The notes under the pieces were generated by a model. That model was not told the DNA's origin and made no database searches. It worked only from the letters and a program-made list of their open reading frames with translations. The translations under genes and the position numbers were made by a program. DNA of 64,000 bases from Naegleria gruberi (taxonomy: Eukaryota), in the NCBI GenBank assembly GCA_000004985.1, contig GG738872.1. One strand, 5' to 3'. This document shows positions 9,733 through 55,883 of this stretch, in pieces. Within the stretch, counting starts at the first letter, position 1. The number at the start of each line of letters is the position of its first letter.

Positions 9733-10215
9733 ATTGCTCGCCTATTAGAAGAACACTATGGAACTAGTTTGAATATTAAATGCAATACCAAGTATTTAAT
9801 TTCATCAGAAACTGATTACATTTCAATTTACAGATTATATACAGATACTGATGTTGATTGGTAAGTAACCTAAACGAGTTAGATATAATAATTGTTCAAA
9901 ATAGGTTGTTTGTGTTAGCAGTTCCTCAATGGAATTACATTAGGTCAATTGTTATTGCTGTAATTTGTGCTATTGTTGGTGCCACATTCATTGTCACAAC
10001 AGGTGTAGCCATTTCCATCTTCATTTCAGTCAGATTAGTGAAACCATTTTACAATTTGATTGATTTATTCGAAAGTGTCTCTCATATGGATTTGGATAAT
10101 TTAGAAATTCATGATTCCAAATTTACAGAAGTGAAACAGTTACAAACTCATTTCAAAACCATGACAGACAGAATCAAACTTTACAGAGCTTTCATACCAT
10201 CACATTTACAAGTAA
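9733..10215 (+). pseudogene. Relic of a receptor-type cyclase-like gene. It covers the end of the extracellular domain, the TM helix and the HAMP-like linker only. It is truncated 5' exactly at the telomere tract and loses homology 3' before the cyclase-homology domain.
   Basis: Translation IARLLEEHYGTSLNIKCNTKYLISSETDYISIYRLYTDTDVDW / (44-nt gtaagt...atag, 9861-9904) / LFVLAVPQWNYIRSIVIAVICAIVGATFIV...VKPFYNLIDLFESVSHMDLDNLEI...IKLYRAFIPSHL is colinear with internal residues of the paralogues at 14482-17128 and 53385-55883. There is no start codon and no N-terminal ~430 codons. A stop follows soon after HL. Confidence 0.8.
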
Positions 10216-10547
10216 TTTTGTCTCATTCATTTTATTAATGTTACTAAGCTCTCTCTCCATATTTGAATTGCCAGCTTGTAGTATTAAGCGGAGAGAATCT
10301 CCCGTTTAGAATAAGAAACGGCCTGAATCCCGTTCATCCCGTTGCCCGTCTCACCGTTTATTTGTATCAACTCATACTGCTACATATTTCATATTGCATT
10401 GATTCAAATCCAATTTCAGAACAAAAACGAATGTATTTGATAGAATTTGTAAAGAGTTCTTGTTATTTTGGGGTTAGTCTTTGATTCCTCTGTATTCAAA
10501 ATGCACCATTGAGAGAAAACGGAAGCTTGTGTAATAAAAGGTTCATT

Positions 10548-13500
10548 CTACCAATTACTGTTGTTTATTAAGNNNNNNNNNNNNNNNNNNNNNNNNNNNN
10601 NNNNNNNNNNNNNNNNNNNNNNNNNNNNNNNNNNNNNNNNNNNNNNNNNNNNNNNNNNNNNNNNNNNNNNNNNNNNNNNNNNNNNNNNNNNNNNNNNNNN
10701 NNNNNNNNNNNNNNNNNNNNNNNNNNNNNNNNNNNNNNNNNNNNNNNNNNNNNNNNNNNNNNNNNNNNNNNNNNNNNNNNNNNNNNNNNNNNNNNNNNNN
10801 NNNNNNNCATTATTTGTAATGACAGAGGTAATGACTAATGATATCAAAGTAATACAAGCAGGTAATAAAAGTGTTGGCATGTTCATCAATCTCAAAATCT
10901 CAGTCAATGCCTCAGCAACTCCACTTTGAGTAATTGCTGCCGCAATTCCAAAAGATGCTCCAACCAATGTCACTAATCTCCATTCCACACAATCAACTGC
11001 TCTCGTTGGTGTTATCAATCCAAATGCAACGACTGCACAGAATGTCACAAGTGTACATTGAACCATTGGAAATCCAGCAATGGCGCATCCAATCATTGCT
11101 AAAAAGAATGGGAAAATCCAATGTTCCCACCACCACAAATCTAAAATGATTTTAGTGAAGGGAATTCTGAATAGAAATGGTTTTTGTTTGAATTGGTTGT
11201 AATCTGGTGAGATTTCGTTAAATCTTGTAATGAGATAGAAATCCTTTGAATTGTCATGATTATTATGGTAGAAAACACTTTTACCCAAAATTAGAATAGT
11301 ATCACCACAATATACTGTTTTGCAATTGACGTGTGAATCCTTATCGTTGGTTTCTTTAGTATCAATTGAGGAGGAACCAACTTGTCTGATGGCTAATACT
11401 TTGACTTGATATCTTCTTTCGAATTCCAAATAAGTTTCTCCTAAACATGGATTTGAAGCTCCAATAACAACCTGGAAGAATTCAGGTTCATTTTCTTGAA
11501 TTTCAGATTGATTAGTTTTAGATTTTTCATTGGAGAGAGCTGCATCTCCATAATTCTTCTTGATATTATGATGTAATTGATTAGTGACTGGATTTTCAGC
11601 TTGTGGTGATGTTGTTGGTGAATCAATTAAATGGTCTTGAGATGTTGAAGAAGCCACGCAACTGCTCTGTGAAATTCTTCCTTCTTCCATTGGAGATTCA
11701 ACACTCAAAAAGGAAGTAGTGCTTTGACCTGTTGCCATTTTAGGTTCTTCTTTTTGGTTGACTGATTCAGAACTTTCAAAAGTTGATTTTTCAATTTCAG
11801 AACCATCATACACAAGTGAATGCAAACGTAAAATTAATTGAGGAGCTCCTTGGAAAACCAAAATATCAGAACTTTCCAATTTTAGATCTAAAGGAACTGG
11901 TGAAATTTTTTCAAGCCCAGCAACAGTTTCGTTTGTTGCTGGAATAATTGTATTCGAAGAAGTAGAGCTATTTGAAGAGTTTGTGGATTGCTCTGGACTT
12001 TCCTTAGGTTCTTCTACCTTAATTTCAATAGATTCTCCATTGGAAATTACATTTGGTTCGCTTGAAGTTGTTGGTTGACTTGAAGATTGTACACTGCTCA
12101 ATTCAACTTGATTGGTTGATTTCTTTTCTCTCAAAATTTCAATCAAATCCAAGTTGCCTATTCCCAACTCTGACATGGCTTTGACTTTGGTCTTTCCATT
12201 CAAAGTTTCAAATAATGTTTTACCTTTCGAATACTTTGGTTGAGAAGCCAAATATTCCATCTTGACAATGGTAACGAAAGTTTCCGAATGTTCTCTCACA
12301 ACTTCTCTTGCACGTTCCTTTTTACTTTTATGAGCAAAAGTAACCTTTGAAGCATTAAACTTTGAAGTCACTCCTTCATTAGGAACAATCCACAATGTAT
12401 AAGTGCAACAATAAATAATTGTAATGAAACATAAAATGGCGCCAACATAAACAAACTCATAAAAGGATAAAGGAGTGTAACCATATTGAGTATAGATACC
12501 ATTTGCAACAATACTTGCTGAAGTTCCAATATATGTCAACAATCCACCTCCATTTGTTGCGAATAAAAGTGACATGAGAAATTTGGTATGTGAAAGTTTG
12601 TGTGTCCTTGCCCATTCCATAATGATAGGAATTCCTGTGGCCACAACTGGAGTATTCGATACAAATGCACTAAAAATGGTAAAAACAAAACAAATTCTTA
12701 AAGTTGGTGGTATGAGTGAAATAAAATTGAGAAATTTGTTTTTGGAATTTTTGAATTTCAATGGGGAACCAAATAAAAGTCTGGCAAATTTCAAAACTAG
12801 GGTATTTTCACTTAATGGTTTGACGATTGGGAAGAGGAGAGCAACGATGAGAGTACCAGTGTTGGAAAAACCACTTAAGGCATCTGTAACACTGACAATA
12901 CCTGCCAGATTAAAAATGACAAGTGTCATAACCACAATAAAGTAAGGTCTCCAAAGAGAAACAACCAGACAGACTAGCATTAGGATGACCATGCATAGTA
13001 CGAACCATAATTTCCATGAATTCCATGAAAATGCAACTACAGGTGACGTGGATCCACAAATATTATTGATGGATGAGCTTGTTAACACTGTATCTATGCT
13101 CACAGATTGATTCAGCTGTTGAATGGTAGTAAAGTTGTAGTTTAGATTCTTAGAAGGAACTTGTGCTTGTAAATCGTTGAAAGCATTCACCAATTCTTGA
13201 CTAAACATTCCACTTTCAATCTTGTTTCTAATATCAGCAAGGTCGAGTTTGACTAGAAACCATTGAATTGCATAGGAATTTGTAAACAACTCTGGAATAT
13301 CCAAGTATTTGGTAGAATTCATGAATGCATTCTTACTTGTCGTTCCATTTATATGAAAAACCATCTTTTCATATGTCAAATCCATTCCACTTTTTGTTTG
13401 AATGACAGAAATTGGATATTCTTGAAGGAGAGAAGTTCTGGAAGGAAGAAAGAGTGAATTTTGATATTTTGTGGAAAGTAAGTTATTATGGATGATTCTA

Positions 13501-13964
13501 AAATAGTAAAAACTTAGTGTTTCGTTCGTTTCGTGCAAACTTTCGACATGTTCATCAAATAGAAACTTCCAAGAAATTGTTCCTTGTCCGTGTTCATAAC
13601 TCAATGAAACATAACTAATGGTAGTGCTTGCATTTATGGTAGAACTCTTATAATTCGTATCGTCATTCGAATAGTAAACACTCTCGGATATATTTTTGGT
13701 AAACTCGGTGGAAAATTGATAAATTTGACCATTTACAAATGCAGATGAAGTAGAAATACAATTATCCAATCGAATAGGATGATTTAGCAAGTTTGCAAGT
13801 GATAAAATGATGAAAATGCTTGAAATGCAAGCAAATACGAAACTGTGGAGTTTCATCTTTTTTTCTTTCGAATTGTTAGATGAGAAGGAAGAGATTCGTC
13901 CTGTTGAAATGCAAAAGGGCACAACTGTGGCCATGCTGGACTCGTTTTCTATACTATTTGGCAT
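10548..13964 (-). CDS. Ion-transporter-superfamily permease (CitMHS/DASS/YfbS-like). It has an N-terminal extracellular domain and two central TrkA-C (RCK_C)-like domains separated by a long Ser-rich linker. About 1138 aa including the gap.
   Basis: Single ORF. A signal/anchor (MKLHSFVFACISSIFIILSLANL) is followed by two multi-pass hydrophobic halves. These flank soluble segments resembling TrkA-C (...SKGKTLFETLNG...IEILREK and ...CLGETYLEFERRYQVKVLAIRQVG...CGDTILILGKS). The last ~85 codons are mostly in the N gap, so the 3' end rests on scaffolding. Confidence 0.6.
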   Translation of the reverse strand: MPNSIENESSMATVVPFCISTGRISSFSSNNSKEKKMKLHSFVFACISSIFIILSLANLLNHPIRLDNCISTSSAFVNGQIYQFSTEFTKNISESVYYSNDDTNYKSSTINASTTISYVSLSYEHGQGTISWKFLFDEHVESLHETNETLSFYYFRIIHNNLLSTKYQNSLFLPSRTSLLQEYPISVIQTKSGMDLTYEKMVFHINGTTSKNAFMNSTKYLDIPELFTNSYAIQWFLVKLDLADIRNKIESGMFSQELVNAFNDLQAQVPSKNLNYNFTTIQQLNQSVSIDTVLTSSSINNICGSTSPVVAFSWNSWKLWFVLCMVILMLVCLVVSLWRPYFIVVMTLVIFNLAGIVSVTDALSGFSNTGTLIVALLFPIVKPLSENTLVLKFARLLFGSPLKFKNSKNKFLNFISLIPPTLRICFVFTIFSAFVSNTPVVATGIPIIMEWARTHKLSHTKFLMSLLFATNGGGLLTYIGTSASIVANGIYTQYGYTPLSFYEFVYVGAILCFITIIYCCTYTLWIVPNEGVTSKFNASKVTFAHKSKKERAREVVREHSETFVTIVKMEYLASQPKYSKGKTLFETLNGKTKVKAMSELGIGNLDLIEILREKKSTNQVELSSVQSSSQPTTSSEPNVISNGESIEIKVEEPKESPEQSTNSSNSSTSSNTIIPATNETVAGLEKISPVPLDLKLESSDILVFQGAPQLILRLHSLVYDGSEIEKSTFESSESVNQKEEPKMATGQSTTSFLSVESPMEEGRISQSSCVASSTSQDHLIDSPTTSPQAENPVTNQLHHNIKKNYGDAALSNEKSKTNQSEIQENEPEFFQVVIGASNPCLGETYLEFERRYQVKVLAIRQVGSSSIDTKETNDKDSHVNCKTVYCGDTILILGKSVFYHNNHDNSKDFYLITRFNEISPDYNQFKQKPFLFRIPFTKIILDLWWWEHWIFPFFLAMIGCAIAGFPMVQCTLVTFCAVVAFGLITPTRAVDCVEWRLVTLVGASFGIAAAITQSGVAEALTEILRLMNMPTLLLPACITLISLVITSVITNNXXXXXXXXXXXXXXXXXXXXXXXXXXXXXXXXXXXXXXXXXXXXXXXXXXXXXXXXXXXXXXXXXXXXXXXXXXXXXXXLINNSNW
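10573..10807. other. Assembly gap (235 N), inside the 3' part of the permease CDS
   Basis: Run of n characters. Confidence 1.
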
Positions 13965-14481: not shown

Positions 14482-17128
14482 TTACATTTTGCTTTCACAT
14501 TGTCTTAGTAAATGAAGTGTAGGTCCATCATGTGGATTTTGTTGATAGAAAGTTTGAAGAATCGAATAAGCTTGTTTGTAATCTTGTTGTAGGAATAATC
14601 TGGATGCTTGTAGATAATCATGCCATTGAGATTGTTTGTTCTTTTCTTGGAGTTCGTACATCCACTTTGTTTTTGAATCAGTTTAATCAACACATTCGAA
14701 ATTTAACACAAAAAGTTATTGGAAAGGTCAAAAACAGAAAAGGACTTACCTCATCGTCGTTCACTTTCAAAGAAGATCCCAATTCATAGATATTTGTTAG
14801 CACGCCAGTATTTGGAGTCTTGTATTCGTCAGTTTTTCCATTGAGCGAGTTTAAATTAGTTTCGTCTAGTAATTCTTTGGAATCTACATATCTGATTTGG
14901 AACAATTGTTCACATTTTTCCTTAATCTTCTCACTTACTACAATACTAACATTCAGTTGAATTGCAATTTGAGTCAATTGATCCAAATTTTGTTTGGCGC
15001 TCGAAATTATTGTAAAGTTTTTCAATTCGTTCGTTCCAATATTTCCACAATAGGAAGATTGTGATAAAACTGCAATTTTAAATGACATTAAATCCAATAA
15101 TTGTGAATTCTTCTTGAAACTGTTTAATAAGGTTGAGGCAGCGACAACTCCTTTTTCTTCATGATTCGTCTGATTATTCGAAGAGTTAAACGAAATGGTG
15201 ATTGATTCATTTTCAAAGTTTCCAACGTTTCCTGTCAAACTTCTACTCACACTATTAATCTGTTCAAAAATATCTGACATTAGCTCAATAGTTTCGTTTG
15301 GATTCATATTTTGCAACCATTCAGTAAATCCATTAAAATGAATCTGGACGAAAGTTACCTTCTTCTGTTCCATATACAAGGAAAACTTGCTTCTATCATT
15401 CTTATATACTTTCCTTGAGGATCTTGCTTTATGAGAAATTCCTTTACTGGAATTAGAACTTCCCACTGATTGAGTTTCCTGACTTGACATGTTGTGCGAA
15501 GATCCTCCGTAGACTTTAGTTCTGGAATTCTTTCGGAAAGATTCGTCTACTTCACTGTCTGATTCTTGGATACCATCTACATTTTCAATTTCTGAAAGTA
15601 AGTGAGCTGGAATAAAACTCTTGTAAAGTTTGATTCGGTTGACCATGGAAATGAAATGTCCTTGTAATTGTTTCACTTCTGAGAATGAACTTGGAATAAT
15701 GTGAAGTTGATCCAAATCCATATTAGCAACACTTTCGAATAACTCTATCAAATTATAAAACGGCTTGACAACTTTTAAGGAAACAACAACTCCCAAGACT
15801 AAACCAACCGAAATGATGAGAACACTACCAATCAATGAGCAGATAATTGCAAAAATTGTCGATCCTAAATAATTCCATTGAGGGACACTCAACACTAATA
15901 TCCAATCAATTTTTGAGCTAGTACACAATCTATATATGGAAATGTATTGTCCACTACGTTCGAGAACTTGCATTTCATTGCAAGTTATTTTAGTCCAATC
16001 ATTCGAATAATGATCAAGAATAGCTTGAGAAATTGCGTTGATTTTGGTATCTGAAACATCGGTTGGTGTTTTTCTATCTAATGATCCATCTGATTTCCAA
16101 TCTGAAATTGTAACTTCCTCTCTGTCAACTATTTCCCATAAACTTTACAATAAAAATTTATGTAACTTACCTGCAATCAAATAAGCAGTTTCAGTTTCCA
16201 CAATAAATCCTAAAGATCCAGTAATGGATGCAATTCTTTCTTTCAAAAAGTCTGAAATCGATGACACTGTCAAATCATTTGCTTGATAATAGTGAAAATT
16301 GTGTCCGTTAGGAAGAGGAAGTTTCTTATTTACGACACAATTCATGGAAGTGATGAATGTGTATTGAGGCATTGAAATGTCAGCATAACTCAATGTAAAA
16401 ACTTGTTGACCTGGATTAGCATCACAGACCTCAACGAGATAGCTCACATCGAATGGCTTGTTGGTTTCGTCTGGATTAGAATTTCTAACACACTGTTCGT
16501 GATTGGTAATGTTGTCGCAATAATAGATTAATTGAGCTGTTGATGTGATATTAAAAGTGGCCAAATAATCTCCCCACTCAATTGATCCAAAGCATGTTTT
16601 ATCTGTACCTCCCACATATGAGGAAATTGTAATTCCCTTCAAATGTTTTTGAGATGACTAATGGCAATTTGAAGGTATTTCATTAATTTTCATGAATTTT
16701 TCATATTTTGAATATGAGAATAGGAATCAATAAACTTTGCTTACCTTGTAGCCTGCAAACATAATCCTCTCCAAATAATCGAAATTTCCATACGAATAAT
16801 CATCAGTTGCCAATTGTTGTTTAATGGCCTCATTCAATACATTAACTTCTTTGAGTGTTTGCTCTGCATATTTGACAATGGTTGAAAACTCTTCGTCTCT
16901 CACTGTTGATGATAAACTGACAACTGTTGGAGAAAAACTTGCCAACCAAATGGCAGATAGGATCAAAACACTGAGGAAGAGTAAACCAGATACCATGACA
17001 ATCATACAAAATTTGATGGAAGTTCCCTTAGTTGAGCCTCCTGTGTAGGAACTTGTTTCTTGATTCTTATCCATTATGGCTTGTTTATCCTCTTGTGAGG
17101 TTGGTGTTACCTTGTTCTTTAATTTCAT
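14482..17128 (-). CDS. Receptor-type class III cyclase-homology protein (TM, extracellular domain, TM, HAMP-like, degenerate CHD, TPR-like tail), 810 aa, 4 exons
   Basis: Exons are 17128..16745, 16657..16171, 16128..14750 and 14664..14482, with introns of 87, 42 and 85 nt (gtaagc/gtaagt donors, AG acceptors). Splicing restores colinearity with the intronless paralogue at 53385-55883 (YK|SSQKHLKGITISSYVGG vs YKSEQKFHKGLTYSTYIGD; VNDDE|WMYELQEK vs NIDEWMYELQEK). The total of 2433 nt is in frame. Confidence 0.85.
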
Positions 17129-17533: not shown

Positions 17534-20500
17534 TTAATCTGATTCGCTGTAATATGGAGAGGCATAGGATGGTGTTGATCTAGCACCAGTCTTGTAGGCA
17601 AATCTAGAGTTATTGCTGTGAGTGAAAGGACGATTGGATCTGATAACATCTCTTTCTTGATTTCCAATAAGAGTATTATTCATAATGTCCATTCCAGAAC
17701 GAGCTTGGGCAGATGGTCTTTTAATGGTTGGTCTTTGGACACCAGAGTTCATTGATCCATAAACCACAAAGCCCAAAACTGCAATAATAAGAGAAAGGAT
17801 GATATAAGTCAAATAACCAGCAGATTCATCTTCGGTATTGTCAGTGTGGACGTGTTCTCTGACTGGTTGACGGGCTTCATTGGATACAAATCTAACAGTA
17901 ATAGGAGTAGTAGTGAGAGTGTATGACTTGGCATTTTCACCAAAGTTGACCTTGACAGACAAGTTAATATCTTGTGTTGACAAGTGCTTCAATTCACCGT
18001 TAAGGAAAGAGTCACGTCTTGGTTTGATTAAACATTCATACTTATCACCAACTTTTTCAGTTCCAACAACTTCCAACCAGCTTTGAGTAGATTCACATTG
18101 TACATTATAATTACGTCTTACTCTGGAATCGTGTGGGAATTTGACTTCTTGACTTGTGTTATCCAAAAGATGGAGTGGAATACGGGTTGGTACTTGTTTC
18201 ACTGGATCAACACCAGAACTAAGTTCAATACTTGAAAGGGAAATCTTAGCTTGAGCAATTCTGACAATGTTAACTTGGATTTGGGTGGTAGTTCTTCCTG
18301 ATTTAAGAGTAACAGTTGCTGAACCAACCTTGTGAGCAGTTCCTACACCGTTCAAATCAACACTAATAACACTAGAATCAGAGCTTTCCCATTTACCAGC
18401 CTTTTCAGAAACAAAAGTAACAGAGTCACCAACGTGAAGTTTGGCAGTTGAGGAGAGTGTGTCAACAACACTTGAAACAACGCTAATTCTGCAATAATAT
18501 GGTTGCTTCAATTCTGGAGCACTCAATTCAACAGTTGTATTACCAAGAGAATTAGAGTAGACAACAATGGCTTCCTTTTGAGCATCAACCTTTACACTAA
18601 CAATATCATGAATATTCATACGGACGTTAATATCAATACCACTAACAGAAGCAAACTTTTCACCGCGAATACCAAGAGCAGAGAGTGGAATTTCAAACTC
18701 ACTACCAATTGGGACTTGGAAGTCATAATCAAATGATTTAGTTTGGAGTTCACTCAAAGACATTGCCAAATAGTGTGGATTTTGAACAGCAACCTTTTGA
18801 GCAACAGTTTGACCGGTGGAAATTTCTTCAACAATAACAACAGAGATACCCTCAGATTCACGAGTAACAATATCACCGTTCTTACTGACAGCAATAAGAT
18901 TATCATATTCATCAGTCTTGGCAATAGTGTATTTTTGAACTGATAAATTATCCTTATTAGTTCTCAAACGGAAAGTAGCAGATCTTGGAGCAAGAATGAG
19001 ATCCTTGTGTGGGAAATCTAATAATTTCAACTTGTCATCAACTTGAATATCAGACTTGGTTGTATGGTGCCAGCTTGAAAGTTGTGGATGTTGGAATGAG
19101 GCACTAGCTGAGATTTGAGTCTTACCAATCTTAGAGCCAGTAATAAAAACAGAGTGACCAGTTTGGCTTTGTGGATAATTGATAATTGAAACTTCTTGTT
19201 CAGCAGAAGAGACAGAGACTTGGAAGAATGGAGATTGCATAAAGAGAGGAGACAAGAGTTGCTTATTATCATAGAGACCATAAACAGGTACAGGGATATG
19301 ATGTCCTTCAAAAACAAAGAGTGGTTGTGGAAGTTTGATACCTACAAGTTGAACAACACGAACTGGAACAGTCTTTCTAGCATAAACAACTGAATTCTTG
19401 ATGAGACTAATCTTTTCGACAACAAGTAATTGTTCACCATAAGTAACACCAGTAACAATTCCTCTAGCATCAACAGAGGCAAACTTGTGATCTTCCTTAA
19501 ACTTGAAAATTGTAGCAATACTTGGTGTTTCAATTGGTCCTCCAGTAACCTTAACTTGGAATTTAGCACCTGGAATCAAGACAAGCTCTGGTGGATTAAC
19601 TCTCATTGGTTCATAAACATTGACCATAAATGGAACACTATAAACTCTTCTTCCATCACTATTAAGAACACTAGCAACAAGTTTAACAACACCAACTCTT
19701 CTACCAGTCAAAACATATTCATCTGGATTAGATTCAGATTGTTTGAGTGAGATTGTGTTTGGAGTGTCAACTTCAATAGAAGTTTGCATGGCATAGTGTT
19801 GAGAAGCTGGGAAATTGGCACCAGTTTCATCGGAAACGCTCAATTTAACAGTAACATAATTGTCAACTTCGACAAATCTTTCACCATCTAAACCAACATG
19901 GTGAGCATCAGCAACTTTAACAAAACTACTAGCAGCTGGGCTGAGTTTGGAGAAGGTATCAAAAACATCAACTCTAACATAACCTGGAACAAGACCAACA
20001 AGTTCAGCAGTTGAACCCTTTGGAGCCAATGTTGCTACGTCAGTATTGTTATGAGAAAAGTCATATCTACCAGAACCACCTGTAGCTTGGAGAGTGAGAC
20101 TAACTTTACGATTTCTGAATAAAAGATAACTAGCAGGATTGAGGTAAATATTTGGAGCAATTCTGAGTTCAATTTCATCCTCTAATGGTTTAGAGAATGC
20201 TGCAATAGCTGAATTCATGATAGAATAAGAGACGTACTTCTTGACTTCATCCTTATTATATCCAATAATTTGTCCTCTCAAGTTTACAGAACCTTCCTTT
20301 TCATAAATATCCAACAATCTGTGTCCTGGATATACTTCCTTATTGGAAATTTTGGCAATATCATGGTGACTGAGTTCCCATTCATCTTGTAAAGTGGAGG
20401 TGGTAACGAAGAGATTTTCTTCACTGTCATAGGCGTTCATTACAGCTGGAACAGTTTGATTATTTCTAACACTGTAAACTCTAATAATGTGAGAGGAAAT

Positions 20501-23342
20501 TAAACCCAATTCCAATTTGGTCTTTGGATCAAGTGGAACAACCTTGATACTTTCTGGTTTTTGACAAGAGTAGTGAATATCAAGTTTGGTCAATGTTGGA
20601 AGAGCATCTTCAGCAGGAATATTGTGCTTAATTTCAACTGTCAAAATTTGCTTTCCAAAATCAAGACATGTAATAGAGAAGCTTCTCTTTCTGTACATGT
20701 CAGAAGCTCTGCTCTTTGAAACCTTGAGACGGTCTGGATCTTCAGTAACAATATTATCGACAATGACAGATTCTCCCTTAACGTAGCTATCCCATGGTTG
20801 TGGACCACCTTCAACACTCAATGAAGCAGTAGCACCCAAAGGAATGAGGAATACCTTGTATTTCTTTGGTGATGGTTCAGTGACAGCAAGTGGTGGGAAT
20901 ACAGCAACATTGGTCTTTTCTTGAATCTTTCCATTTTGATAACGGATCTTGACAGATGTGAAACCTTCTGAAATGGCATTAAGATAAATTTCAGCATCTA
21001 AATTCTTAGAAGATTTGCAAGATTGAGAGATAATATTGTAAACATTGGTATCAACAATGTTCCATTCAAAATTGAGACTAGAAATATTGTGGAAAACATT
21101 TCCATCAACATCTAAACCTTTAGCACGCAAACAGAGTGATTGAGATGGTACAACTTCTCTAGTACCCTTTTCAAAAACTAAACTATGCAATGGTGAAACA
21201 GAAACGGCACGAGCATCACCATTGTACAAGTTTTGTTGATCGAAAACAATGACATCAGCTTTACCATCCTTCTTGGCAACAAGAAGACCCAAAACAGAGT
21301 TGGCTTCCTTTTGAGATCTAATATCGAATGGTGAGACAGAAGGAGAAGATGAAGTCCATGAAAGCAAGCCACTTCCACCTTGAGCACTAAGAATAAACAT
21401 TTGTTCAACATTTCTATCACTTGGTAAATAAATAACTTCATCAGGAATATCAATCTTAACTCTAGGAAGGATAGAGATGGACTTGGTATGAGTGAGTTCA
21501 ATTTCGTCATTGTGTCCTGGGAAAATGTCAGAAGACAAGTCAGCAGTCTTCAATGTTACTCTCAAAACAACATCAGACAACTTTTTAGCTCTGACAACAA
21601 ACAAGTCTTCATTGGCAGATCTTTCAAGAATAGTGATTGGTTCACTGTCACTTGATTCAATTTCAAATTTAAATTTGAGATTCTCGGTAATATAAATCTT
21701 TTGATATTGTTGATCGAATAAATCAATCTTGACTTCATAGTCATTATCCAAAACGAGACTGGTATGTTCAGTATTGAGAGAATTCTTGAAATTTCTAACA
21801 ATATAATCATATCCTCTATAGAGTTGGAGTTTCTTAGGAGAAATATTAATCTTGATGAATGCTGGTTTGACAACATGAACGAGAGCAGTGGCTCTATTCA
21901 AAGCAAATGTAACATCCTCAACATTTACATTGGTATCACCGAGATCGAATGCCTTGAAAATACCCTTAGTTTTTTCAACTTCACCAACAGTACCATTACT
22001 TGATGACCAAGTATATTTGGCATCTGGCATGGCAATTTCCATTTGTGACTTTCCATTTTGTTTAATGAAGAGTTTGAATGGAATGACTGCACCTGGGATA
22101 ACTCTCAATTCAGTGTCTGGCTGTAATAAAAAGCTATCGACAACAGAAATAACAACACTATCTTGTAATACTTGAATTTCTCCTGTTGTTGTTCTGAGAG
22201 AGACGGATACCAAAACTTCACCAGATAACAATCCTCTAGCAACAATAACATCATGACTTCCGACACTTCTCTTGATTCTCTTCTTTTCATCAAAGAAATG
22301 AACAGATTCATCATTAATATCAATTAATTCAATGTTGCCTCTGTTGTTGTTAATATTATTATTATCATTAATAAAATTATTAAATGATGACAATGAAGTA
22401 CCATCAAAATTGAATAGATAGTAAAATATTTAGAAATACTATAAAAACTACTAATACATACTGCTTCTTTGAGGTCTTTAAACCTTCTTGTTTCCAAATA
22501 AAACTCAAACCTGTCAATGAGCTGAAAAGATTTCCTTCATTATCAAAGGCGTCAACTTGCAATGTTTCAAGTTCTCCAATAGTAAGCTTTCTCACAGTAG
22601 TTTGCAATTTAATCTTGTCAATAGAGGAGATGAAAACTTCACAACTAGCTGATGGAGATGATGATGTTTGAAGGGATGGTGGATATTTAGATGCTTTGAC
22701 AATAGCAACTCTGGTATTTGTGTTATGACCTTTTGGAATGACCTGTTGTTGTTGTTGTTGTTGTATAATATTATTATATTTCACACAACATTGTTATTAA
22801 TATTATTGTATTCCACACATTTTTGTCATCATCATAATATAATAATTTAATAATTGAAATTAAAATTCCATCAATTCGATCCATTAACAAATACTTACTT
22901 GAATTTCTTGAGAGCAACTAATAATTCTAGAATCATCAGAGGAAGAAGTCTCGATATTATCAACAGGAACCAATGATACTAAATCAGGATGGAGAGTACT
23001 CCAATAAAAACAATTTTGTTTGTCATCCTCGTTCAATCCTACAGTGTTGGCTTTCAATGTAATACCATCACTGTTCCATGTTATCAAAGCACTAACTCTG
23101 TTTAATAAAATTGGGGAATTTTTAGATGTTTCATGTTGGTAGGAAGGACGAGCGAGTGCTAAAAAGATGAGTGAAACAATAAAAATTACTACGAATGATG
23201 GCTTAACAAGAGATGATTTGGTTTGTCTTCTTGTAGCAGCAGCTATTAAATTCTCGCATTCATGATGTTTTGTATTCAATGTGGATTTTGACGAGTGCGA
23301 GAACCACATTTTTTTTCGAGGTTTTTTTGTTGAAGGTGGCAT
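17534..23342 (-). CDS. NUP210: Nuclear pore membrane glycoprotein gp210 (NUP210), 1843 aa, 3 exons
   Basis: Exons are 23342..22899, 22742..22462 and 22340..17534, with introns of 156 nt (gtaagt...cag) and 121 nt (gtatgt...cag). The N-terminal region aligns by eye with metazoan gp210 (CFYWSTLHPDLVSLVP vs CYRWLSTRPEVASIEP; LETLQVDAFDNEGNLFSSLTGLSFIW vs [25 protein letters not shown]). It has a long Ig-like repeat lumenal body, a single TM (YLTYIILSLIIAVLGFVVYG) and a ~70-aa tail. Confidence 0.85.
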
Positions 23343-25494: not shown

Positions 25495-28400
25495 ATGGTC
25501 GGAACAAGAACAAAGAAGGAGCTGCTTGAATCATCAATGCAGAATTTATCTAGTTTTATTGCAGAGGCAGTACAGAGAGAGGAATCAACAAATACCTCTC
25601 TTATTCAAAACATGGTTCAACCAACAACAAGAACGTCATCTTTGCCAACATCACCACTCTCTACAACATCAAACAATAATCAACTTGCATCAAATTCTAC
25701 AATACCATCGTCATCATCATCAGCACATGTTTCCTTCAATACTCCGGATACCATAGAAAATATTTGCAAAAACCAATCATCTTCCAATAGGTTCAATAAT
25801 AATAATTTGATTATTAATACATCCATGATGGCGATGATGAATAACGAATATAATAACCAACCATCAACATCCACTCCAACAAGTCTTAAAGTAAGAACTA
25901 TTTCACCTCTCCACGATTCTCCACCTCCTTCATCCTCTAATTTTAGCAATAATAATAATATGGAAATGATAACAGCAAGTAGTAGAGGGTCGTACTCTAG
26001 AAGACAATCACCTTATGATCCATTTGCTCAACAATTATCTCTCTCACAATATACCTTACAATCATCAAAGAGTGTAAATACAAGCGTTAATAATAATAAT
26101 AATAATATGAATAACAACAACAACAATTCAATAAGGGATGAGAATGAACATCATCACCATCATCACCACCATCATGATCCATCGAAATGGGAACGAAAAC
26201 TGTTAGAAATTACCAGAGTAGCGTTCGTATCCATGCTAGGCTCCAAGAATAAGAGATTAAGCGAATGGACCTTGATGAATCAAATTTCGGAATCCTTAAC
26301 AGACATTACATCGAGTCAATTTTGCATCATTTTGAAAGCAGTTAATCCTCCTTCCCAACAACAAGAATCAAATTACAATACTAATTCACCAACTCATTCT
26401 CCTTCACCAACCACTAACAATCCACCAGATGTCAGTAATGATGTGCATTTACAAGTTATTGGAATTTATGGTATTGAAACAGAGGCTGCCAAATTGTTTG
26501 TAGCTCCATATAGACACAAGGTTCCAACAAGTGGACCTCATTCAATATTTGCCCATTGTTACAATAGACAACAAATTATTATTAATAATTTGAGTTCTAC
26601 AACTAATTTACCACCAGGACATCTTCCAATTTCCAACTCGATATGTGTTCCAATATGTTATGGAAAGGAATGTATCGGTGTAGTTTTACTATCTAATAGA
26701 TTTTCAGGATACAGAGAGGATATGGAAAAATCACTGGTCGCTTGGGCCCAATCCCTTGGTCAAATGTTGAAAATGTATGCTGTACTCTTTGAGAATGAAA
26801 CTGGCCAATCATTCTTTGACACATCTAATATCAACATGCCCCCTGTGACTGTAAATCCATATGGAAGCAAATTCAGGAGAGAGTATGGAGATTCACCAAT
26901 TTCTTGCATGCCTGGAAGACTTCCTCATCCTTTCGATTTCAATGCAAACCACATAAGAAGAGCATCCATTTCAAATATTCAAATCTCAAAACCTGCAGCT
27001 TATTTAGGAAAATTAGGAAAGTCTAAAAGCAGTGGGAATGTCTTTACTGTAAATGATAGAGTTAGTAGAAATAGTTCATTTAGCAGTGTTTGTAATGACA
27101 ATGATTCCGAAAGTGGTGAATGTAAAAAATCATTACGTATTGATGTTAGTAATGATGTTGATGGAATGGATCAAGACGAAAGAAGAGTCCCAAATAGAAA
27201 TTTTTCCGCTAGTCCTTGTAGTAGTGTTAGTAGCGTTTCAGATAGTCATGGTGAAGAGTATCAAGATCCAATTTCGCTATTTGAAGAAATTGAAAATGAA
27301 ATGCTAAAGTCGGCAGAGTTATCTCTGGCTCTATTTAAGGCAGTTCAAGACAGTATTTTAATTCTCGATCAAAATCTCAATATTACTACTATGAATCCAA
27401 GTGCAAAAAAATTCTTTGGTGTTTCTACTAATCAATCTCCGAATACTAGTATTCCCTATATGGGTAATGGATCTCAGATCATTTCAGTCAGAGATTTGAT
27501 TCCAGACAATTCTACTCAACATTTGAATTGGTCTGAAGTTTGTAAACCTAATGGAGTTAGTTGGTATAGAGGTAAGGCTCTGGCCAAATGTAGAAATAAT
27601 AACAACTTTGACAATAACAGGACAGCATCCGGTTTACTCATGGCCTCACACTCACCATCGACAACAGTAACAAACTATGTGGAACTTCTTTCAAATACAC
27701 CCCTCTCACCAAATACATCTGCAGGAACAATTTCTCCTACAGGAGTAGAGGATCATTCTATGAATAGGAAACAAGATTCCAGTCAAGATTTTAGTAGACT
27801 TGTACCAATTGCAATTTCTGTAACAAGTTTCTTTTTCAAGGAGGAGATTTACTTTTCTGTGACTGTAACTGATGAATCATCAAAGGAAGACATGAAAGAC
27901 AAGATGAAGTTTATCGCCTTCTTGAGCCACGAGTTGAGAAATCCAATTCAAGTGATTGTTTCAGGAGTTCAATGCCTAGTTGACATTTTCAAAGATAACG
28001 AAGATTCGGATGATATGGATAATGGAAAATCAATTATTAAGAGTATTTCATCATCTTCAGATTTCATTTCACACATTATCAATGACATGATTGATTTAAC
28101 AAAGTTGGAATCTGGTCACATGAAAGTAATTGAGTCATCATTTAATATTAGAGAGAAGGTAGAGCAAATAGTGGAAATGTTGAAAATTTATCAAGTAGAC
28201 AAGAATATTGACATCTCTTACCAAATAGATGACGCTGTTCCTCAAAATTTGTACTCTGATGCTACAAAACTTCAACAAATCATTCTAAACATAATGTCAA
28301 ACTCATGTAAATATACCAAGAGTGGAAGTGTTCGACTTGTATGCTCTTATGAAAACTTAACAGAAGATAACAAACCAAAAAAGAATATCATTTTCAAGAT

Positions 28401-53384: not shown

Positions 53385-55883
53385 ATGGAAGATAAATCTG
53401 CAATACATAACGATAACTATCAGGGGAGTGCTGTCGTTCTTGCTCGACTCAACAAACGGTCTTCTTCTATTGTTATTGGACATCAATCTAGTGATGACGA
53501 CATATCGATAGATGCAGAAGAGAATAGAAATAGCTCTCCCTTTTATAAATCTGTAAAGTTTTCGCTCTTAATGTTGGTAGGAGCTTCAGTACTACTCACA
53601 GTTGTACTTTTAACATTAATATGGATACCAACTTTTAGTTCTAGTATTTATACCCTAAGTGAAGCCAATAGGCTCAAAGAATTTAACTCTATAGTTTCCT
53701 TTGTTTCACAAACTGTGCGAGAGATTGTGATGGTTTCAGAGTCAAGTAAAAATTTGCTCAAATATGACTTTAATGTATCAGATGTGTCTGTAGTCGAACG
53801 AGCCATGTACCAAATTTATAAGAGCGAACAAAAATTTCACAAAGGCTTAACCTATTCGACCTACATTGGTGATTCATTTGGCAATTTGGTTGGCATTGTT
53901 GACTTGAATGGAAAGCACATGTTTGTACTTGTAGATAGTAACAACACGCAGTTATTTGAGTGTGTAGATATTTGGAAAAATGATTTGTGTGTTAGATCGC
54001 AAACACCCAACACCAGTGCACCAAGATTGGACATGAGTGTTGTTGTGGAGAGAGGGACCTTATTCTTAAACTCGCCCTCCTTCACTCTAAGCTATGTAGA
54101 TTCAAGGTTTCCCTACACTGTCTATATTACATTAGTGAATAGTGTGAGTAAGGCTGAAGATGCTTCCCTAGGAATTCCCTTTTCATTTTATTTTGGTTAT
54201 GATATCTCAACGACACGAATTTCGAACTATCTCAATAGTGAATCCTCAGATATACCCAACTCATTGGCCTACATTCTAGAGTCATCAACAGGCAATATTA
54301 TTTCCAGTAGTTTCAATGATTTTTACTATGGAACACCAAATGCTAGATCCTCAATTACTAATTTCCCAGGTGGAGGAAGAAATAAGTATATTGCGGAGAC
54401 TATTCTCGGCAACTTGAATTCAAACATTAGAAATCTGAGGTGTGGTGAGCAGTTGTTTCTCTCACCAGGTGATGAATACATAACAGCCCACAGAATTTGC
54501 CTCGAAGAGAACATTGATTGGATTATTGTTTTTGCAGTGAAACAATGGACCTATGTTTCTACAATGGTTGTGGCAATTGTGGTTGCTCTTGTTGCAAGTA
54601 CAGTTGTTACAATTATTGGATTCATCATTGGAATTTTCTTTTCTTTGAAAATGGTGGAGCCATTCGACTCTCTCATTGCAATGGTCAGGTCCGTCTCTTA
54701 TATGGACTTTGCTCTTCCAAAGATTGAACCATCCTTCTTCTCTGAATTGTCAGATTTACAACAAAACTTTTTACTCATGATTAGTAAAATTAAGAGCTAC
54801 AGAGCCTTCATTCCAAGTCACCTTCTTTCAGAATTGGATGCTCCTAATGAGAAGGCTCTTGTGGAGGATATTCAAAATAAGAAACCATCTGGAAATTTGG
54901 TGAGAAGACTCTCCTCTTCAAAGAGATTATCTCAGGGAGCACTAAGGAAGACTATGGTATTTGCACAGAAGGATAGATTTGCTCTCGGATTGGAAGACAG
55001 ATGTATCAGCCAAGTCTGTATTTACATTCAAGGATTCAAAACAATAACAGAAGATTGTGATTTGAAAGACATTGTCTTTTTATTGGGAGAAATTTATGAT
55101 TCCCTTATAAAGACAAGCAAAACCACAGGAGGTCAAATTGGATTATTCGAAAATAACTTGGTAACCATGTCTTGGAACGCAACAAAGGATCAACCAAAAC
55201 ATGAACTTAAGGCACTAAGCACAGCAACCTCATTCTTACAAAAAATTAACATTATCAAAGAAACCAGATGGAGATCGTATGAAGTCTTCAGAACATTCCC
55301 AAAACTCTTAGAGAATATTCATTTTAGAGTATCAGTTTCATCCCAATTGTGTCAGTGTGGTAATATTGGTACTGAAGAATTTAAGAGTTTTACAATCCTA
55401 GGAAGTATACAAAAGAACCTTTTCAGTCTTGTAAATATTGCAAAACAATTCAATCTTGGAGTGTTAGTGACTGAAGATATTCACTCTGCATGTGTAACAA
55501 ATTTTACAATGAGATATATTGAAAATGTAGACCTCGCTGTAGATGTAAGAAGGGCAAGAAATAATTTTGCAGAACCTCTCAAACAAAAAAGCACAAAACT
55601 ATATGAAGTTGGAGAAAGTACAGCTGTTAATATTGATGAGTGGATGTACGAGCTTCAAGAAAAGGAAAAGAAGGAAAGGTGGTTAAATTACAATAGAGCT
55701 ACCTTGTCCTTCTTTGAAAAGGATTACAATGAAGCAATTACATTAATGGATGAATTTTTGAAAAAGTTTCCAGATGATTTACCAGCACTTCACTTTAAAG
55801 CAAAATGTTATTCATACTTGGGAAACATCTCTCATGTTGAATCTCTAGAGGTATTAAGAAAGAACAGTTTCAAAGATAAATAA
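53385..55883 (+). CDS. Receptor-type class III cyclase-homology protein (TM, extracellular domain, TM, HAMP-like, degenerate CHD, TPR), 832 aa. Intronless paralogue of 14482-17128.
   Basis: Single ATG ORF. It has two TM helices (SLLMLVGASVLLTVVLLTLIWIP; VSTMVVAIVVALVASTVVTIIGFIIGIFF), the linker VEPFDSLIAMVRSVSYMDF...KIKSYRAFIPSHLLSE, a CHD-like block VCIYIQGFKTITE...GGQIGLFENNLVTMSW...VSVSSQLCQCGNIGT...FTILGSIQKNL, and TPR-like ATLSFFEKDYNEAITLMDEFLKKFPDD. Confidence 0.85.
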   Translation: MEDKSAIHNDNYQGSAVVLARLNKRSSSIVIGHQSSDDDISIDAEENRNSSPFYKSVKFSLLMLVGASVLLTVVLLTLIWIPTFSSSIYTLSEANRLKEFNSIVSFVSQTVREIVMVSESSKNLLKYDFNVSDVSVVERAMYQIYKSEQKFHKGLTYSTYIGDSFGNLVGIVDLNGKHMFVLVDSNNTQLFECVDIWKNDLCVRSQTPNTSAPRLDMSVVVERGTLFLNSPSFTLSYVDSRFPYTVYITLVNSVSKAEDASLGIPFSFYFGYDISTTRISNYLNSESSDIPNSLAYILESSTGNIISSSFNDFYYGTPNARSSITNFPGGGRNKYIAETILGNLNSNIRNLRCGEQLFLSPGDEYITAHRICLEENIDWIIVFAVKQWTYVSTMVVAIVVALVASTVVTIIGFIIGIFFSLKMVEPFDSLIAMVRSVSYMDFALPKIEPSFFSELSDLQQNFLLMISKIKSYRAFIPSHLLSELDAPNEKALVEDIQNKKPSGNLVRRLSSSKRLSQGALRKTMVFAQKDRFALGLEDRCISQVCIYIQGFKTITEDCDLKDIVFLLGEIYDSLIKTSKTTGGQIGLFENNLVTMSWNATKDQPKHELKALSTATSFLQKINIIKETRWRSYEVFRTFPKLLENIHFRVSVSSQLCQCGNIGTEEFKSFTILGSIQKNLFSLVNIAKQFNLGVLVTEDIHSACVTNFTMRYIENVDLAVDVRRARNNFAEPLKQKSTKLYEVGESTAVNIDEWMYELQEKEKKERWLNYNRATLSFFEKDYNEAITLMDEFLKKFPDDLPALHFKAKCYSYLGNISHVESLEVLRKNSFKDK

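What the first reader, a model, noticed from the sequence alone, without database searches (positions are those of the whole stretch)
14482..17128. Receptor 'cyclases' whose cyclase-homology domain lacks the catalytic residues (three family members in 64 kb)
In class III cyclases, two Asp (F.DI.GFT and K.iGD) bind metals and an Asn/Arg pair (N.AaR) stabilises the transition state. In this gene the equivalents read FVQIHFNGFT (Asp to His), GNFENESITISF (GD to EN) and KQNLDQL (Arg lost). The paralogue at 53385-55883 reads CIYIQGFKT, GLFENNLVTMSW and QKNLFSL. Both otherwise keep an intact receptor architecture (extracellular domain, TM, HAMP-like KLY[KR][AS]FIP.HLL, TPR tail) and long open frames. 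They look like maintained pseudo-enzymes or obligate heterodimer partners rather than pseudogenes.
Basis: partly seen in the sequence, partly recalled or inferred. Interest (0 to 1): 0.5.

Follow-up and report, generated by a model that had tools for sequence, protein, structure and literature searches.

The report
Naegleria receptor with dead cyclase domain
This is an intact, selectively maintained Naegleria gruberi membrane-receptor gene whose output domain is a real adenylate/guanylate-cyclase fold that has lost the residues needed to make cAMP or cGMP, and it belongs to a sizeable amoeba-specific family of such probable "pseudo-cyclase" receptors.

Summary
The core observation holds. Window 14482-17128 (minus strand) is a four-exon, 810-aa gene of Naegleria gruberi. 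Its architecture is TM1, dCache sensor, TM2, HAMP, transducer-like helix, Ser-rich linker, cyclase-homology domain (CHD), TPR-like tail.

Pfam does not detect the CHD. A family profile hits solved class III cyclases (E=1.8e-11), profile-profile probability is 99.96%, and an AlphaFold model matches cyclase structures.

- **Catalytic columns:** metal Asp1 is His554. The substrate Lys is Asn594. The transition-state Arg is Leu675 or Gln674, depending on register.
"GD" aligns with Asn597-Glu598, so Asp2 is Glu here and Asn in the paralogue. The "third member" (9733-10238) is a 144-aa fragment without a CHD. KLYKSFIPAHLL looks like a transducer motif, not the HAMP.
- **Family:** about 60 cluster representatives, all named ones from Naegleria or Willaertia. 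None has Asp1, and none has Arg four residues after the invariant Asn.
- **Selection:** CHD dN/dS is about 0.19 against an orthologue with identical intron positions. The linker evolves about neutrally. These are not pseudogenes.
- **Heterodimer idea:** both half-sites are defective, so a classic complementing partner is disfavoured.

Best reading: a maintained pseudo-cyclase receptor. Activity is untested.

The parts
14482..17128 (-). Whole gene: 4 exons (17128-16745, 16657-16171, 16128-14750, 14664-14482 including the stop), 810 aa. Introns are 16744-16658, 16170-16129 and 14749-14665.
   Evidence: The ORF pieces and GTAAG donors were found and the splice enumeration gave one open 810-aa frame. 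The intron positions and acceptor choices match the orthologue in L001.
15872..16939 (-). Extracellular sensor, about aa 64-376, with a double-Cache (dCache) fold. It is flanked by TM1 (16940-17014) and TM2 (15782-15871).
   Evidence: The AF2 model of the homologous part of the paralogue (pLDDT 77) matches dCache ligand-binding domains of chemoreceptors and histidine kinases in Foldseek (McpB model 9a69 E=2.5e-11; 3lie, 2p7j, 7prq and others at about 1e-7). Pfam finds nothing.
15632..15781 (-). HAMP-like domain, about aa 407-456 (KPFYNLIELFESV...SEVKQLQGHFISMVNRI).
   Evidence: The profile of TM2 plus this region hits the NarQ TM-HAMP (E=0.004) and Tsr (E=0.03). The AF2 model shows a helix, a loop and a helix after TM2. 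The support is weak but consistent.
15584..15631 (-). Transducer-like motif KLYKSFIPAHLLSEIE (aa 457-472), the most conserved stretch of the protein.
   Evidence: Mean pairwise identity is 74%. It lies within the TM2-HAMP-transducer block, which has dN/dS 0.08. The resemblance to the LLxxxLPxxVAxxL cyclase transducer element is recalled from the literature, not tested here.
15395..15583 (-). Ser-rich, low-complexity linker (aa 473-535) inserted between the transducer motif and strand beta1 of the CHD.
   Evidence: Family identity is 17% and evolution is near neutral. The spacing from the motif Pro to the Asp1 column has a median of 80 aa in the family, against 30 aa in canonical cyclases. The equivalent region of the paralogue is disordered in the AF2 model.
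14795..15394 (-). Degenerate class III cyclase-homology domain (aa 536-735). Key codons: His554 (15338-15340, Asp1 column), Asn594 (15218-15220, substrate Lys column), Asn597-Glu598 (15206-15211, the 'GD' columns), Thr663 (15011-15013), Gln670/Asn671 (14987-14992, Asn column in the two registers), Gln674/Leu675 (14975-14980, Arg column in the two registers).
   Evidence: The target also lacks a 15-aa segment (KLLSLKQTKWKTNPH in the orthologue) that holds a near-invariant Trp.
14485..14755 (-). Conserved DEWMYELQ junction and TPR-like helical tail (aa 749-810; contains intron 3 at 14665-14749).
   Evidence: The tail profile hits TPR proteins (SRP72 2e-5, CDC27 0.011, designed CTPR3 0.18). Pfam TPR-type hits are below threshold. 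dN/dS is 0.16.
53385..55883 (+). Full-length paralogue, single exon, 832 aa, identical to N. gruberi XP_002676329.1 / NAEGRDRAFT_68321 (annotated 'predicted protein'). Catalytic columns: Tyr (IYIQGFK, 55020-55040), Asn-Asn (LFENNL, 55143-55160), no Arg (QKNLFSL, 55410-55430).
9733..10238 (+). Gene fragment of a third family member: only the end of the sensor, TM2, the HAMP and the transducer motif, with a 44-nt intron-like gap at 9862-9905. It has no N-terminal sensor and no CHD.
   Evidence: tblastn gives 94% identity to P0005 aa 330-430 and 84% to aa 287-329. No CHD hit is found here with either HMM. It is flanked by the chromodomain ORF 6541-9303(-) and the assembly gap 10573-10807.

Best explanation
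The gene encodes a bacterial-type single-pass-pair receptor of Naegleria gruberi. Its domains, in order, are TM1, an extracellular dCache ligand-binding domain, TM2, a HAMP, a transducer-like helix, a disordered Ser-rich linker, a class IIIb-derived cyclase-homology domain, and a TPR-like tail.

The cyclase domain keeps its fold and is under purifying selection. It has lost the first metal-binding Asp, the substrate-binding Lys and the transition-state Arg, and its second Asp is Glu. It therefore most likely cannot make cAMP or cGMP.

Inferred mechanism: ligand binding to the dCache domain is relayed through TM2, the HAMP and the transducer helix to a dimer of the dead cyclase domains. The rearrangement of that dimer, together with the TPR-like tail, is read out by protein-protein interaction or allostery rather than by second-messenger synthesis. 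This could include non-productive pairing with other cyclases.

Shown here: the gene structure, fold, residue equivalences, family distribution and selective constraint. Inferred: loss of activity, dimerisation, and the nature of the output.
For: - **Real CHD:** (CyaB, E=1.8e-11; hhalign probability 99.96%; AF2 model plus Foldseek, probability 1.0).
- **Residue equivalences:** His554 aligns with Asp1, Asn594 with Lys, and Asn597-Glu598 with Gly-Asp. Arg is replaced by Leu675 or Gln674. The HMMER family profile, a canonical-cyclase HMM and hhalign agree.
- **Family-wide pattern:** among 62 representatives, the Asp1 column is Y/H/K/L/F/R/Q/M and never D. The column four residues after the invariant Asn is L/M/I/V and never R. 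All 75 canonical hits in the same alignment, which were picked for carrying Asp1 and Gly-Asp, show Asn and Arg in one of the two registers.
- **Asp1 column is variable:** this argues against a conserved replacement ligand.
- **Constraint:** dN/dS is 0.19 for the CHD, 0.23 for the sensor and 0.08 for TM2-HAMP-transducer, and the linker is about neutral. Domain identities are, and the orthologue shares the intron positions.
- **Module reuse:** the same degenerate CHD is attached to a different sensor (Pfam NIT) in N. fowleri P0036. This suggests it is a working output module.
- **Architecture:**
Against: - No biochemical data exist, and pseudoenzymes with 'migrated' catalytic residues are known (review PMC10211241).
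- The target keeps His554 and Glu598, which could in principle bind a metal.
- Of the 58 representatives that have a residue in both columns, 35 have Asp or Glu two residues after the Asp1 column and 38 keep an acid at Asp2; column counts are.
- The invariant Asn671, Thr663 and a conserved polar pocket (E596, N597, N605, K660) suggest that the former active site still does something.
- dS against the only available orthologue is near saturation (about 1.1-1.4), so the dN/dS values are rough.
- The target alone has a 15-aa deletion in the CHD, and it is missing from the public protein sets searched.
Confidence: 0.6

Rival explanations
1. Obligate heterodimer subunit: the protein pairs with a catalytically complete or complementary cyclase subunit and contributes half of one composite active site, as C2 does in mammalian adenylate cyclases or the beta subunit does in soluble guanylate cyclase.
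For: - Class III sites are built from two subunits, and homodimers of half-site subunits are inactive while heterodimers are active (PMC3591389).
- Naegleria has many cyclases, at least 81 according to PMC9928731.
- The family keeps an invariant Asn and the purine-pocket Thr, which are C2-side residues.
Against: - The C2/beta side also needs the Arg and the Lys or Glu, and both are missing. The C1/alpha side needs both Asp residues, and Asp1 is missing in every one of about 60 representatives. Neither half-site is intact, and no pair within the family can complement.
- The window holds no canonical CHD.
- The closest canonical relatives detected are CHASE2 cyclases, and the only named one is bacterial, not a Naegleria paralogue.
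- I could not survey the canonical Naegleria cyclases directly. One search returned only 2 hits.
Confidence: 0.13
2. Non-canonical enzyme or ligand sensor: the remodelled pocket still binds a nucleotide. It either catalyses cyclisation or another nucleotidyl transfer with migrated residues, or it acts as a nucleotide or cyclic-nucleotide receptor.
For: - Family-specific, nearly invariant polar residues sit at positions that line the canonical substrate pocket. These are E596-N597 (canonical hydrophobic residue then Gly), N605, K660 (canonical Met/Leu/Phe), T663 and N671.
- An acidic residue two positions after the Asp1 column is present in 35 of 58 members.
- Degenerate pseudo-symmetric sites of real cyclases bind regulators such as forskolin (PMC3591389).
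Against: - The target has Asn and the paralogue has Gln at the 'shifted acid' position.
- An acid there is not significantly associated with an acid at Asp2 (Fisher p=0.10, not corrected for phylogeny).
- The Asp1 column is highly variable.
- No coordinates could be inspected, so pocket geometry is inferred only from homology.
Confidence: 0.17
3. Decaying gene: the target is a recently inactivated copy on its way to becoming a pseudogene. Its cyclase domain is simply degenerating.
For: - The target is not found in the public protein collection, although the paralogue is.
- It alone lacks a 15-aa conserved segment with a near-invariant Trp.
- A clearly truncated family fragment lies 4.2 kb away.
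Against: - All four exons are open and the splice sites are canonical.
- The orthologue has identical intron positions. CHD dN/dS is 0.19, while the linker of the same gene is near neutral.
- The catalytic substitutions are shared by the whole family across at least four species, so they are ancient and not recent decay.
Confidence: 0.05

Closest known systems
Class IIIb receptor adenylate cyclases of bacteria (CHASE2-CHD proteins; P. aeruginosa CyaB, PDB 3r5g)
   Same: - They are the best sequence and structure matches to the CHD.
- They share Thr at the purine-specifying position, the GN.G[ST] hairpin and the His of the alpha3 motif.
- In several of them the alignment runs on into the C-terminal tail.
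- The overall design is also shared: a membrane sensor followed by a helical transducer and then a CHD.
   Different: - Those proteins have Asp, Gly-Asp, Lys, Asn and Arg in the catalytic columns and pass Pfam PF00211 at about 1e-27. The target and paralogue have no PF00211 hit at E<=1.
- The sensor here is dCache plus HAMP, not CHASE2.
- A Ser-rich insert of about 50 residues separates the transducer motif from the CHD.
Half-site subunits of heterodimeric cyclases (mammalian adenylate cyclase C1/C2; soluble guanylate cyclase alpha/beta)
   Same: The CHDs individually lack part of the catalytic set, are inactive as homodimers, and leave a degenerate pseudo-symmetric pocket that binds regulators (PMC3591389).
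   Different: Each of those subunits keeps one complete half-site, either the Asp pair or Asn, Arg and Lys/Glu. This family lacks essential residues of both halves, and no complementary sister is seen among about 60 representatives.
Degenerate GGDEF/EAL and pseudokinase output domains in receptors (general pseudoenzyme paradigm)
   Same: The enzyme fold is kept under selection after loss of catalytic residues and is used for allostery, scaffolding or ligand sensing (PMC10211241).
   Different: The fold and chemistry are different. That review does not mention cyclases at all (0 occurrences).
dCache-HAMP chemoreceptors and histidine kinases of bacteria (e.g. B. subtilis McpB, Vibrio vpHK1S-Z8, P. 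aeruginosa PctD)
   Same: The N-terminal half has the same predicted fold and topology: TM1, a long stalk helix, two PAS-like modules, TM2 and a HAMP.
   Different: The output is a dead CHD rather than a kinase or methyl-accepting domain, and the host is a eukaryote. Sequence models had found Cache in only one Naegleria protein (PMC4822843), and Pfam does not detect it here.

Membership tests
Class III nucleotidyl cyclase homology domain (fold/superfamily) | Significant profile similarity to known CHDs | tested here: met
   The family profile hits PDB cyclases at E=1.8e-11 to 1e-4. hhalign against 75 canonical CHDs gives probability 99.96% and E=6.5e-38. A canonical HMM hits the target at E=1.5e-24.
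Class III nucleotidyl cyclase homology domain (fold/superfamily) | CHD three-dimensional fold | tested here: met
   The AF2 model has pLDDT 82 and pTM 0.81. All of the top 50 Foldseek PDB hits are class III cyclases, at probability 1.0 and target-normalised TM up to 0.83.
Class III nucleotidyl cyclase homology domain (fold/superfamily) | Pfam PF00211 Guanylate_cyc above the gathering score | tested here: not met
   The target and paralogue have no hit at E<=1. Only 3 of 13 family members hit, with a best E of 0.02.
Catalytically competent class III cyclase | First metal-binding Asp (F.DI.GFT) | tested here: not met
   It is His554 in the target and Tyr in the paralogue, and it is never Asp in the 62 family representatives.
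Catalytically competent class III cyclase | Second metal-binding Asp (K..GD) | tested here: not met
   It is Glu598 in the target (conservative) and Asn in the paralogue. The preceding Gly is Asn. Asp is kept in 29 of 61 relatives.
Catalytically competent class III cyclase | Transition-state Asn | tested here: inconclusive
   Invariant Asn671 aligns with it if a one-residue gap is allowed, and the helix pattern NLxxLxE against NLASRLE fits. The ungapped alignments put Gln670 there.
Catalytically competent class III cyclase | Transition-state Arg | tested here: not met
   It is Leu675 in the gapped register or Gln674 in the ungapped one. In the paralogue it is Leu or Ser. No family representative has Arg four residues after the invariant Asn, and 8 of 59 have an Arg three residues after it.
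Catalytically competent class III cyclase | Substrate-binding Lys (AC) or Glu (GC), four residues before Asp2 | tested here: not met
   It is Asn594 in the target. The family shows mostly Ser or Asn, whereas the canonical set has Lys in 58 and Glu in 10 of 75.
Catalytically competent class III cyclase | Purine-pocket Asp/Thr/Cys on beta5 | tested here: met
   It is Thr663, as in class IIIb enzymes (canonical set: Thr in 59 of 75).
Catalytically competent class III cyclase | Cyclase activity | not testable with these tools
   This needs an enzyme assay.
C1/alpha-type or C2/beta-type half-site subunit of a heterodimeric cyclase | One complete half-site: either both Asp residues, or Asn + Arg + Lys/Glu | tested here: not met
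   Asp1 is missing, and Arg and Lys are missing. No complementary member appears among about 60 representatives.
dCache (double Cache/PDC) extracellular sensor | Long N-terminal helix plus two PAS-like alpha/beta modules between two TM helices | tested here: met
   The AF2 secondary-structure order is given. Foldseek hits dCache ligand-binding domains at E=2.5e-11 to 1e-4. This was tested on the paralogue, which is 28% identical to the target in this region. Pfam Cache models give no hit.
HAMP domain | Helix, connector and helix of about 50 aa right after TM2, with sequence similarity to HAMPs | tested here: inconclusive
   The profile hits the NarQ TM-HAMP at E=0.004 and Tsr at 0.03, and the AF2 model shows helices after TM2. 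Pfam HAMP is not detected.
Cyclase transducer element (CTE) coupling | Conserved helical motif placed about 30 residues before Asp1 of the CHD | tested here: not met
   A motif-like sequence is present (FIPxHLL), but the spacing has a median of 80 aa (range 60-108), against about 30 aa in 15 of 22 canonical cyclases with a recognisable motif. The motif consensus itself is recalled from memory.
TPR repeat | Helix-turn-helix repeat with the TPR sequence signature | tested here: met
   The tail profile hits the SRP72 TPR at 2e-5, CDC27 at 0.011 and designed TPRs at 0.2-0.4. Only about one repeat is present, and the Pfam TPR models are below threshold.

The most novel reading that the evidence does not exclude
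The dead cyclase domain is not just a passive dimerisation scaffold. Its remodelled pocket, with the family-specific invariant residues E596-N597, N605, K660, T663 and N671, is a conserved binding site for a nucleotide, a cyclic nucleotide or another small molecule, or possibly a new catalytic site. On that reading these dCache (and NIT) receptors integrate an extracellular ligand with an intracellular metabolite. They would form a eukaryotic family of 'cyclase-fold sensors' analogous to degenerate GGDEF receptors for c-di-GMP.
Probability: 0.2. Interest if true: 0.7.

Novelty: new variant of a known kind. Interest (0 to 1): 0.4.

Why it matters
- **Cyclase counts:** Naegleria is noted for a very large cyclase repertoire (at least 81 in the pangenome paper PMC9928731). 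If a whole receptor clade is catalytically dead, counts of "cyclases" overstate the cAMP/cGMP-producing capacity. At least 9 N. gruberi genes are seen here, with relatives in N. fowleri, N. lovaniensis and Willaertia.
- **Signalling logic:** part of the amoeba's environmental sensing would then run through a non-enzymatic use of the cyclase fold.
- **Pseudoenzyme biology:** the family would be a clean natural example of a homodimer-type class III cyclase turned pseudoenzyme. That category is much less documented than pseudokinases or degenerate GGDEF domains.
- **Annotation:** the family is invisible to Pfam for the sensor, HAMP and CHD alike, so it is annotated only as "predicted protein". 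The target gene itself seems to be missing from public protein sets.
- **Cache in eukaryotes:** dCache sensors appear to be more widespread in this eukaryote than sequence models had indicated (PMC4822843).

Tried and rejected
- **Pfam on the target and paralogue.** It found no cyclase, Cache or HAMP hit. This would wrongly suggest the domain is not a CHD, and profile and fold evidence overruled it.
- **First structure job.** I re-ran it on the part of the CHD that lies within exon 3.
- **DNA of N. gruberi paralogues for a less saturated dN/dS.** P0004, P0005 and P0013 are not on record. I used the Logan orthologue L001 instead.
- **Survey for canonical Naegleria cyclases that share the sensor, HAMP and transducer region.** It returned only 2 hits because of the word index, so it was uninformative.
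- **Shifted two-carboxylate metal site.** I tested whether an acid two residues after Asp1 goes together with an acid at Asp2. The association is not significant (Fisher p=0.10).
- **Complementary C1-like and C2-like subclasses within the family.** None exists, because Asp1 is absent everywhere.
- **Literature searches for pseudo-cyclases or this family.** Nothing relevant turned up. One search was swamped by an unspecific term. The library holds only open-access papers, so absence there is weak evidence.
- **Pseudogene reading of the target.** Rejected on dN/dS and intron conservation.
Full report
**Source and gene model.** The window is eukaryotic, with about 34% GC, short GTAAG introns and two N gaps. 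The paralogue at 53385-55883 is residue-for-residue identical to Naegleria gruberi XP_002676329.1 / NAEGRDRAFT_68321, so the window is N. gruberi NEG-M. The finding's coordinates match a minus-strand gene exactly. The ATG is at 17128, the exons are 17128-16745, 16657-16171, 16128-14750 and 14664-14482, and there are three short introns. The product is 810 aa. A search of 5.8 billion clustered proteins returned no identical or near-identical entry. The best hits were N. lovaniensis at 49%, a Logan contig at 62% over 55% of the query, N. fowleri at 41% and N. gruberi paralogues at 33-40%. The gene therefore seems to be missing from public annotation.

**Is the C-terminal domain a cyclase domain?** Pfam says nothing at E<=1, and only 3 of 13 relatives reach E=0.02. 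Three other lines of evidence settle it.
- A profile of 12 family members hits solved class III cyclases: CyaB 3r5g at 1.8e-11, Cya2 2w01 at 2.3e-9, and the photoactivated cyclases at about 1e-7.
- A profile-profile comparison with 75 canonical cyclases gives probability 99.96% and E=6.5e-38.
- An AlphaFold model of target aa 528-750 (pLDDT 82) matches only cyclase structures among the 50 Foldseek hits listed, at probability 1.0.

The domain is a genuine CHD, nearest to class IIIb. It has Thr at the purine position and a GN.G[ST] hairpin.

**Catalytic columns.** Three independent alignments were used: HMMER family profile against CyaB, canonical HMM against the target, and hhalign.
- All three agree that Asp1 of F.DI.GFT is His554, the substrate Lys is Asn594, and 'GD' is Asn597-Glu598. 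The second metal Asp is a Glu in the target and an Asn in the paralogue (ENN).
- Around the Asn/Arg helix the alignments differ by one residue. With a one-residue loop insertion, invariant Asn671 matches the canonical Asn and Leu675 replaces Arg. The helix pattern NLxxLxE against NLASRLE, and the helix start in the AF2 model, favour this register. Without the gap, Gln670 and Gln674 take those places.
- Arg is absent either way. In the paralogue the columns read Tyr, Leu, Asn-Asn and Leu or Ser.

**The family.** A full HMMER scan of 1.84 billion representatives with the CHD profile found 13,147 hits. There is a distinct top group of about 60 (scores of 113 bits or more), then a drop to canonical cyclases at 89 bits or less.
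- In one common alignment the 75 canonical hits, which were picked for carrying Asp1 and Gly-Asp, also show Asn and Arg in one of the two registers. The family shows Y/H/K/L/F/R/Q/M at Asp1 and never Asp. It shows L/M/I/V four residues after the invariant Asn and never Arg, and 8 of 59 have an Arg one residue earlier. Asn replaces the Gly of GD in 52 of 61. Asp2 is kept in only 29 of 61.
- Named members come only from N. gruberi, N. fowleri, N. lovaniensis and Willaertia magna. More divergent and even more degenerate relatives sit on a eukaryotic metagenome contig whose neighbours are cyclin, IFT81 and Sec5 genes.
- The closest canonical relatives are CHASE2-CHD cyclases. The one named example is from a candidate-phylum bacterium.
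- The window holds two CHDs and no canonical one.
- The 'third member' at 9733-10238 is a 144-aa fragment. It is 94% identical to aa 330-430, and 84% to aa 287-329, of the N. gruberi paralogue P0005. It has no sensor and no CHD, and it lies between a chromodomain ORF and an assembly gap.

**Architecture.** An AF2 model of the paralogue's N-terminal half shows TM1 continuing into a long helix, two alpha/beta modules, TM2 and further helices.
- Foldseek matches dCache ligand-binding domains of bacterial chemoreceptors and histidine kinases, with E from 2.5e-11 down.
- The region from TM2 onward weakly matches the NarQ and Tsr TM-HAMP regions.
- The motif KLYKSFIPAHLLSEIE follows the HAMP and is the most conserved stretch, at 74% identity. 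It resembles the cyclase transducer element as I recall it from the literature.
- In this family a Ser-rich, disordered, nearly neutrally evolving linker separates that motif from the CHD. The median spacing to the Asp1 column is 80 residues, against 30 in canonical cyclases.
- The tail after a conserved DEWMYELQ junction matches TPR proteins.
- An N. fowleri member carries a NIT sensor in front of the same degenerate CHD. The dead domain is therefore reused as an output module.

**Selection.** A Logan contig (L001, run ERR1598038) carries an orthologue that is 61% identical, with the same three intron positions.

| Region | dN/dS (Nei-Gojobori) |
|---|---|
| Whole gene | 0.22 |
| CHD | 0.19 |
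| Sensor | 0.23 |
| TM2-HAMP-transducer | 0.08 |
| Tail | 0.16 |
| Linker | about neutral (pN 0.59, pS 0.82) |

dS is about 1.1-1.4, close to saturation, so these values are approximate. The contrast within one gene is still clear. Among paralogues the CHD (41% identity) is as conserved as the sensor (37%), whereas the linker is at 17%. The catalytic substitutions are shared across species, so they are old.

**Interpretation.** The gene is a maintained receptor whose cyclase domain has very probably lost cyclase activity.
- The classical heterodimer explanation is disfavoured. In C1/C2 or sGC alpha/beta each partner keeps one full half-site (PMC3591389). This family lacks residues from both halves and has no complementary sister.
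- A regulatory or dominant-negative pairing with other Naegleria cyclases cannot be excluded, because I could not survey them.
- The former pocket carries family-specific invariant polar residues (E596, N597, N605, K660, N671). This leaves room for ligand binding or non-canonical chemistry.
- A shifted acidic residue is common in relatives but absent in the target and the paralogue, and it is not significantly coupled to Asp2.
- The target is the most derived member seen. It has Glu at Asp2 and a unique 15-aa deletion that removes a near-invariant Trp segment.

**Novelty.** Automatic annotation calls some homologues 'Guanylate cyclase domain-containing protein'. I found no paper that describes this family or its degeneracy, but the library is open-access only. 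I rate it a new variant of a known kind, namely a pseudoenzyme derived from a class III cyclase. It is of moderate interest until activity or binding data exist.

Noticed in passing
window 9733-10238 (+): A partial copy of another N. gruberi family member. It is 94% identical to aa 330-430, and 84% to aa 287-329, of P0005, and has an intron-like 44-nt gap at 9862-9905. It lacks the N-terminal sensor and the CHD, so it is probably a duplicated gene fragment or pseudogene, unless the adjacent assembly gap hides more.
   Followed up: partly
window 6541-9303 (-): A 921-aa ORF whose only Pfam hit is a C-terminal chromodomain (E=4.7e-10). It sits right next to the gene fragment and could be part of a mobile element that carried or broke the fragment. 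It was not characterised further.
   Followed up: partly
window 14482-17128 (-): The 810-aa target protein has no identical or near-identical entry among the public proteins searched, although the neighbouring paralogue is annotated. The gene appears to be missing from the N. gruberi gene catalogue.
   Followed up: partly
window about 15100-15125 (-), target aa 625-632: The target lacks a 15-aa segment (KLLSLKQTKWKTNPH in the orthologue) between helix alpha3 and strand beta4 of the CHD. The segment contains a Trp that is near-invariant in the family and also present in CyaB. The deletion is in frame and specific to this gene.
   Followed up: partly
window 15395-15583 (-) and family-wide: A Ser-rich disordered insert of 30-78 residues splits the transducer-like helix from the cyclase domain. 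Canonical cyclases have a fixed spacing of about 30 residues. The insert may be a phospho-regulated linker or a sign that mechanical coupling is no longer needed.
   Followed up: partly
P0036 (N. fowleri FDP41_004922) and relatives P0034, P0038, P0039: A subgroup carries the same degenerate cyclase domain behind a NIT (nitrate/nitrite-sensing) ectodomain instead of dCache. It has an Arg one residue before the expected position.
   Followed up: partly
window 53385-55883 (+) and family-wide: The ectodomain has a dCache fold that Pfam does not detect. A 2016 survey reported Cache in only one Naegleria protein (PMC4822843), so dCache receptors are under-counted in this genus.
   Followed up: partly
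window 25495-29058 (+); 30108-34337 (-): Other signalling receptors cluster in the window. One is a hybrid histidine kinase with GAF, PAS, HisKA, HATPase and receiver domains. The other is a receptor kinase built from NHL repeats, an EGF domain, a TM segment and a protein kinase, spread over three ORFs that are probably exons.
   Followed up: no
window 17537-22393 (-); 10811-13964 (-); 55980-58820 (+); 36450-37505 (+): The neighbouring genes are a NUP210-like nucleoporin, a CitMHS-type transporter that runs into the N gap, a PGAP1-like membrane protein and a RhoGEF. Nothing links them functionally to the receptor, and the orthologue in L001 has different neighbours, so there is no conserved synteny.
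   Followed up: partly
window 1169-5508 and 10573-10807: These are assembly gaps (runs of N). The long 'ORFs' listed at 1148-5923 and 1162-5517 are artefacts of the gap.
   Followed up: yes
window 41342-50929 (+): A very long open frame of 3195 aa that was not examined.
   Followed up: no
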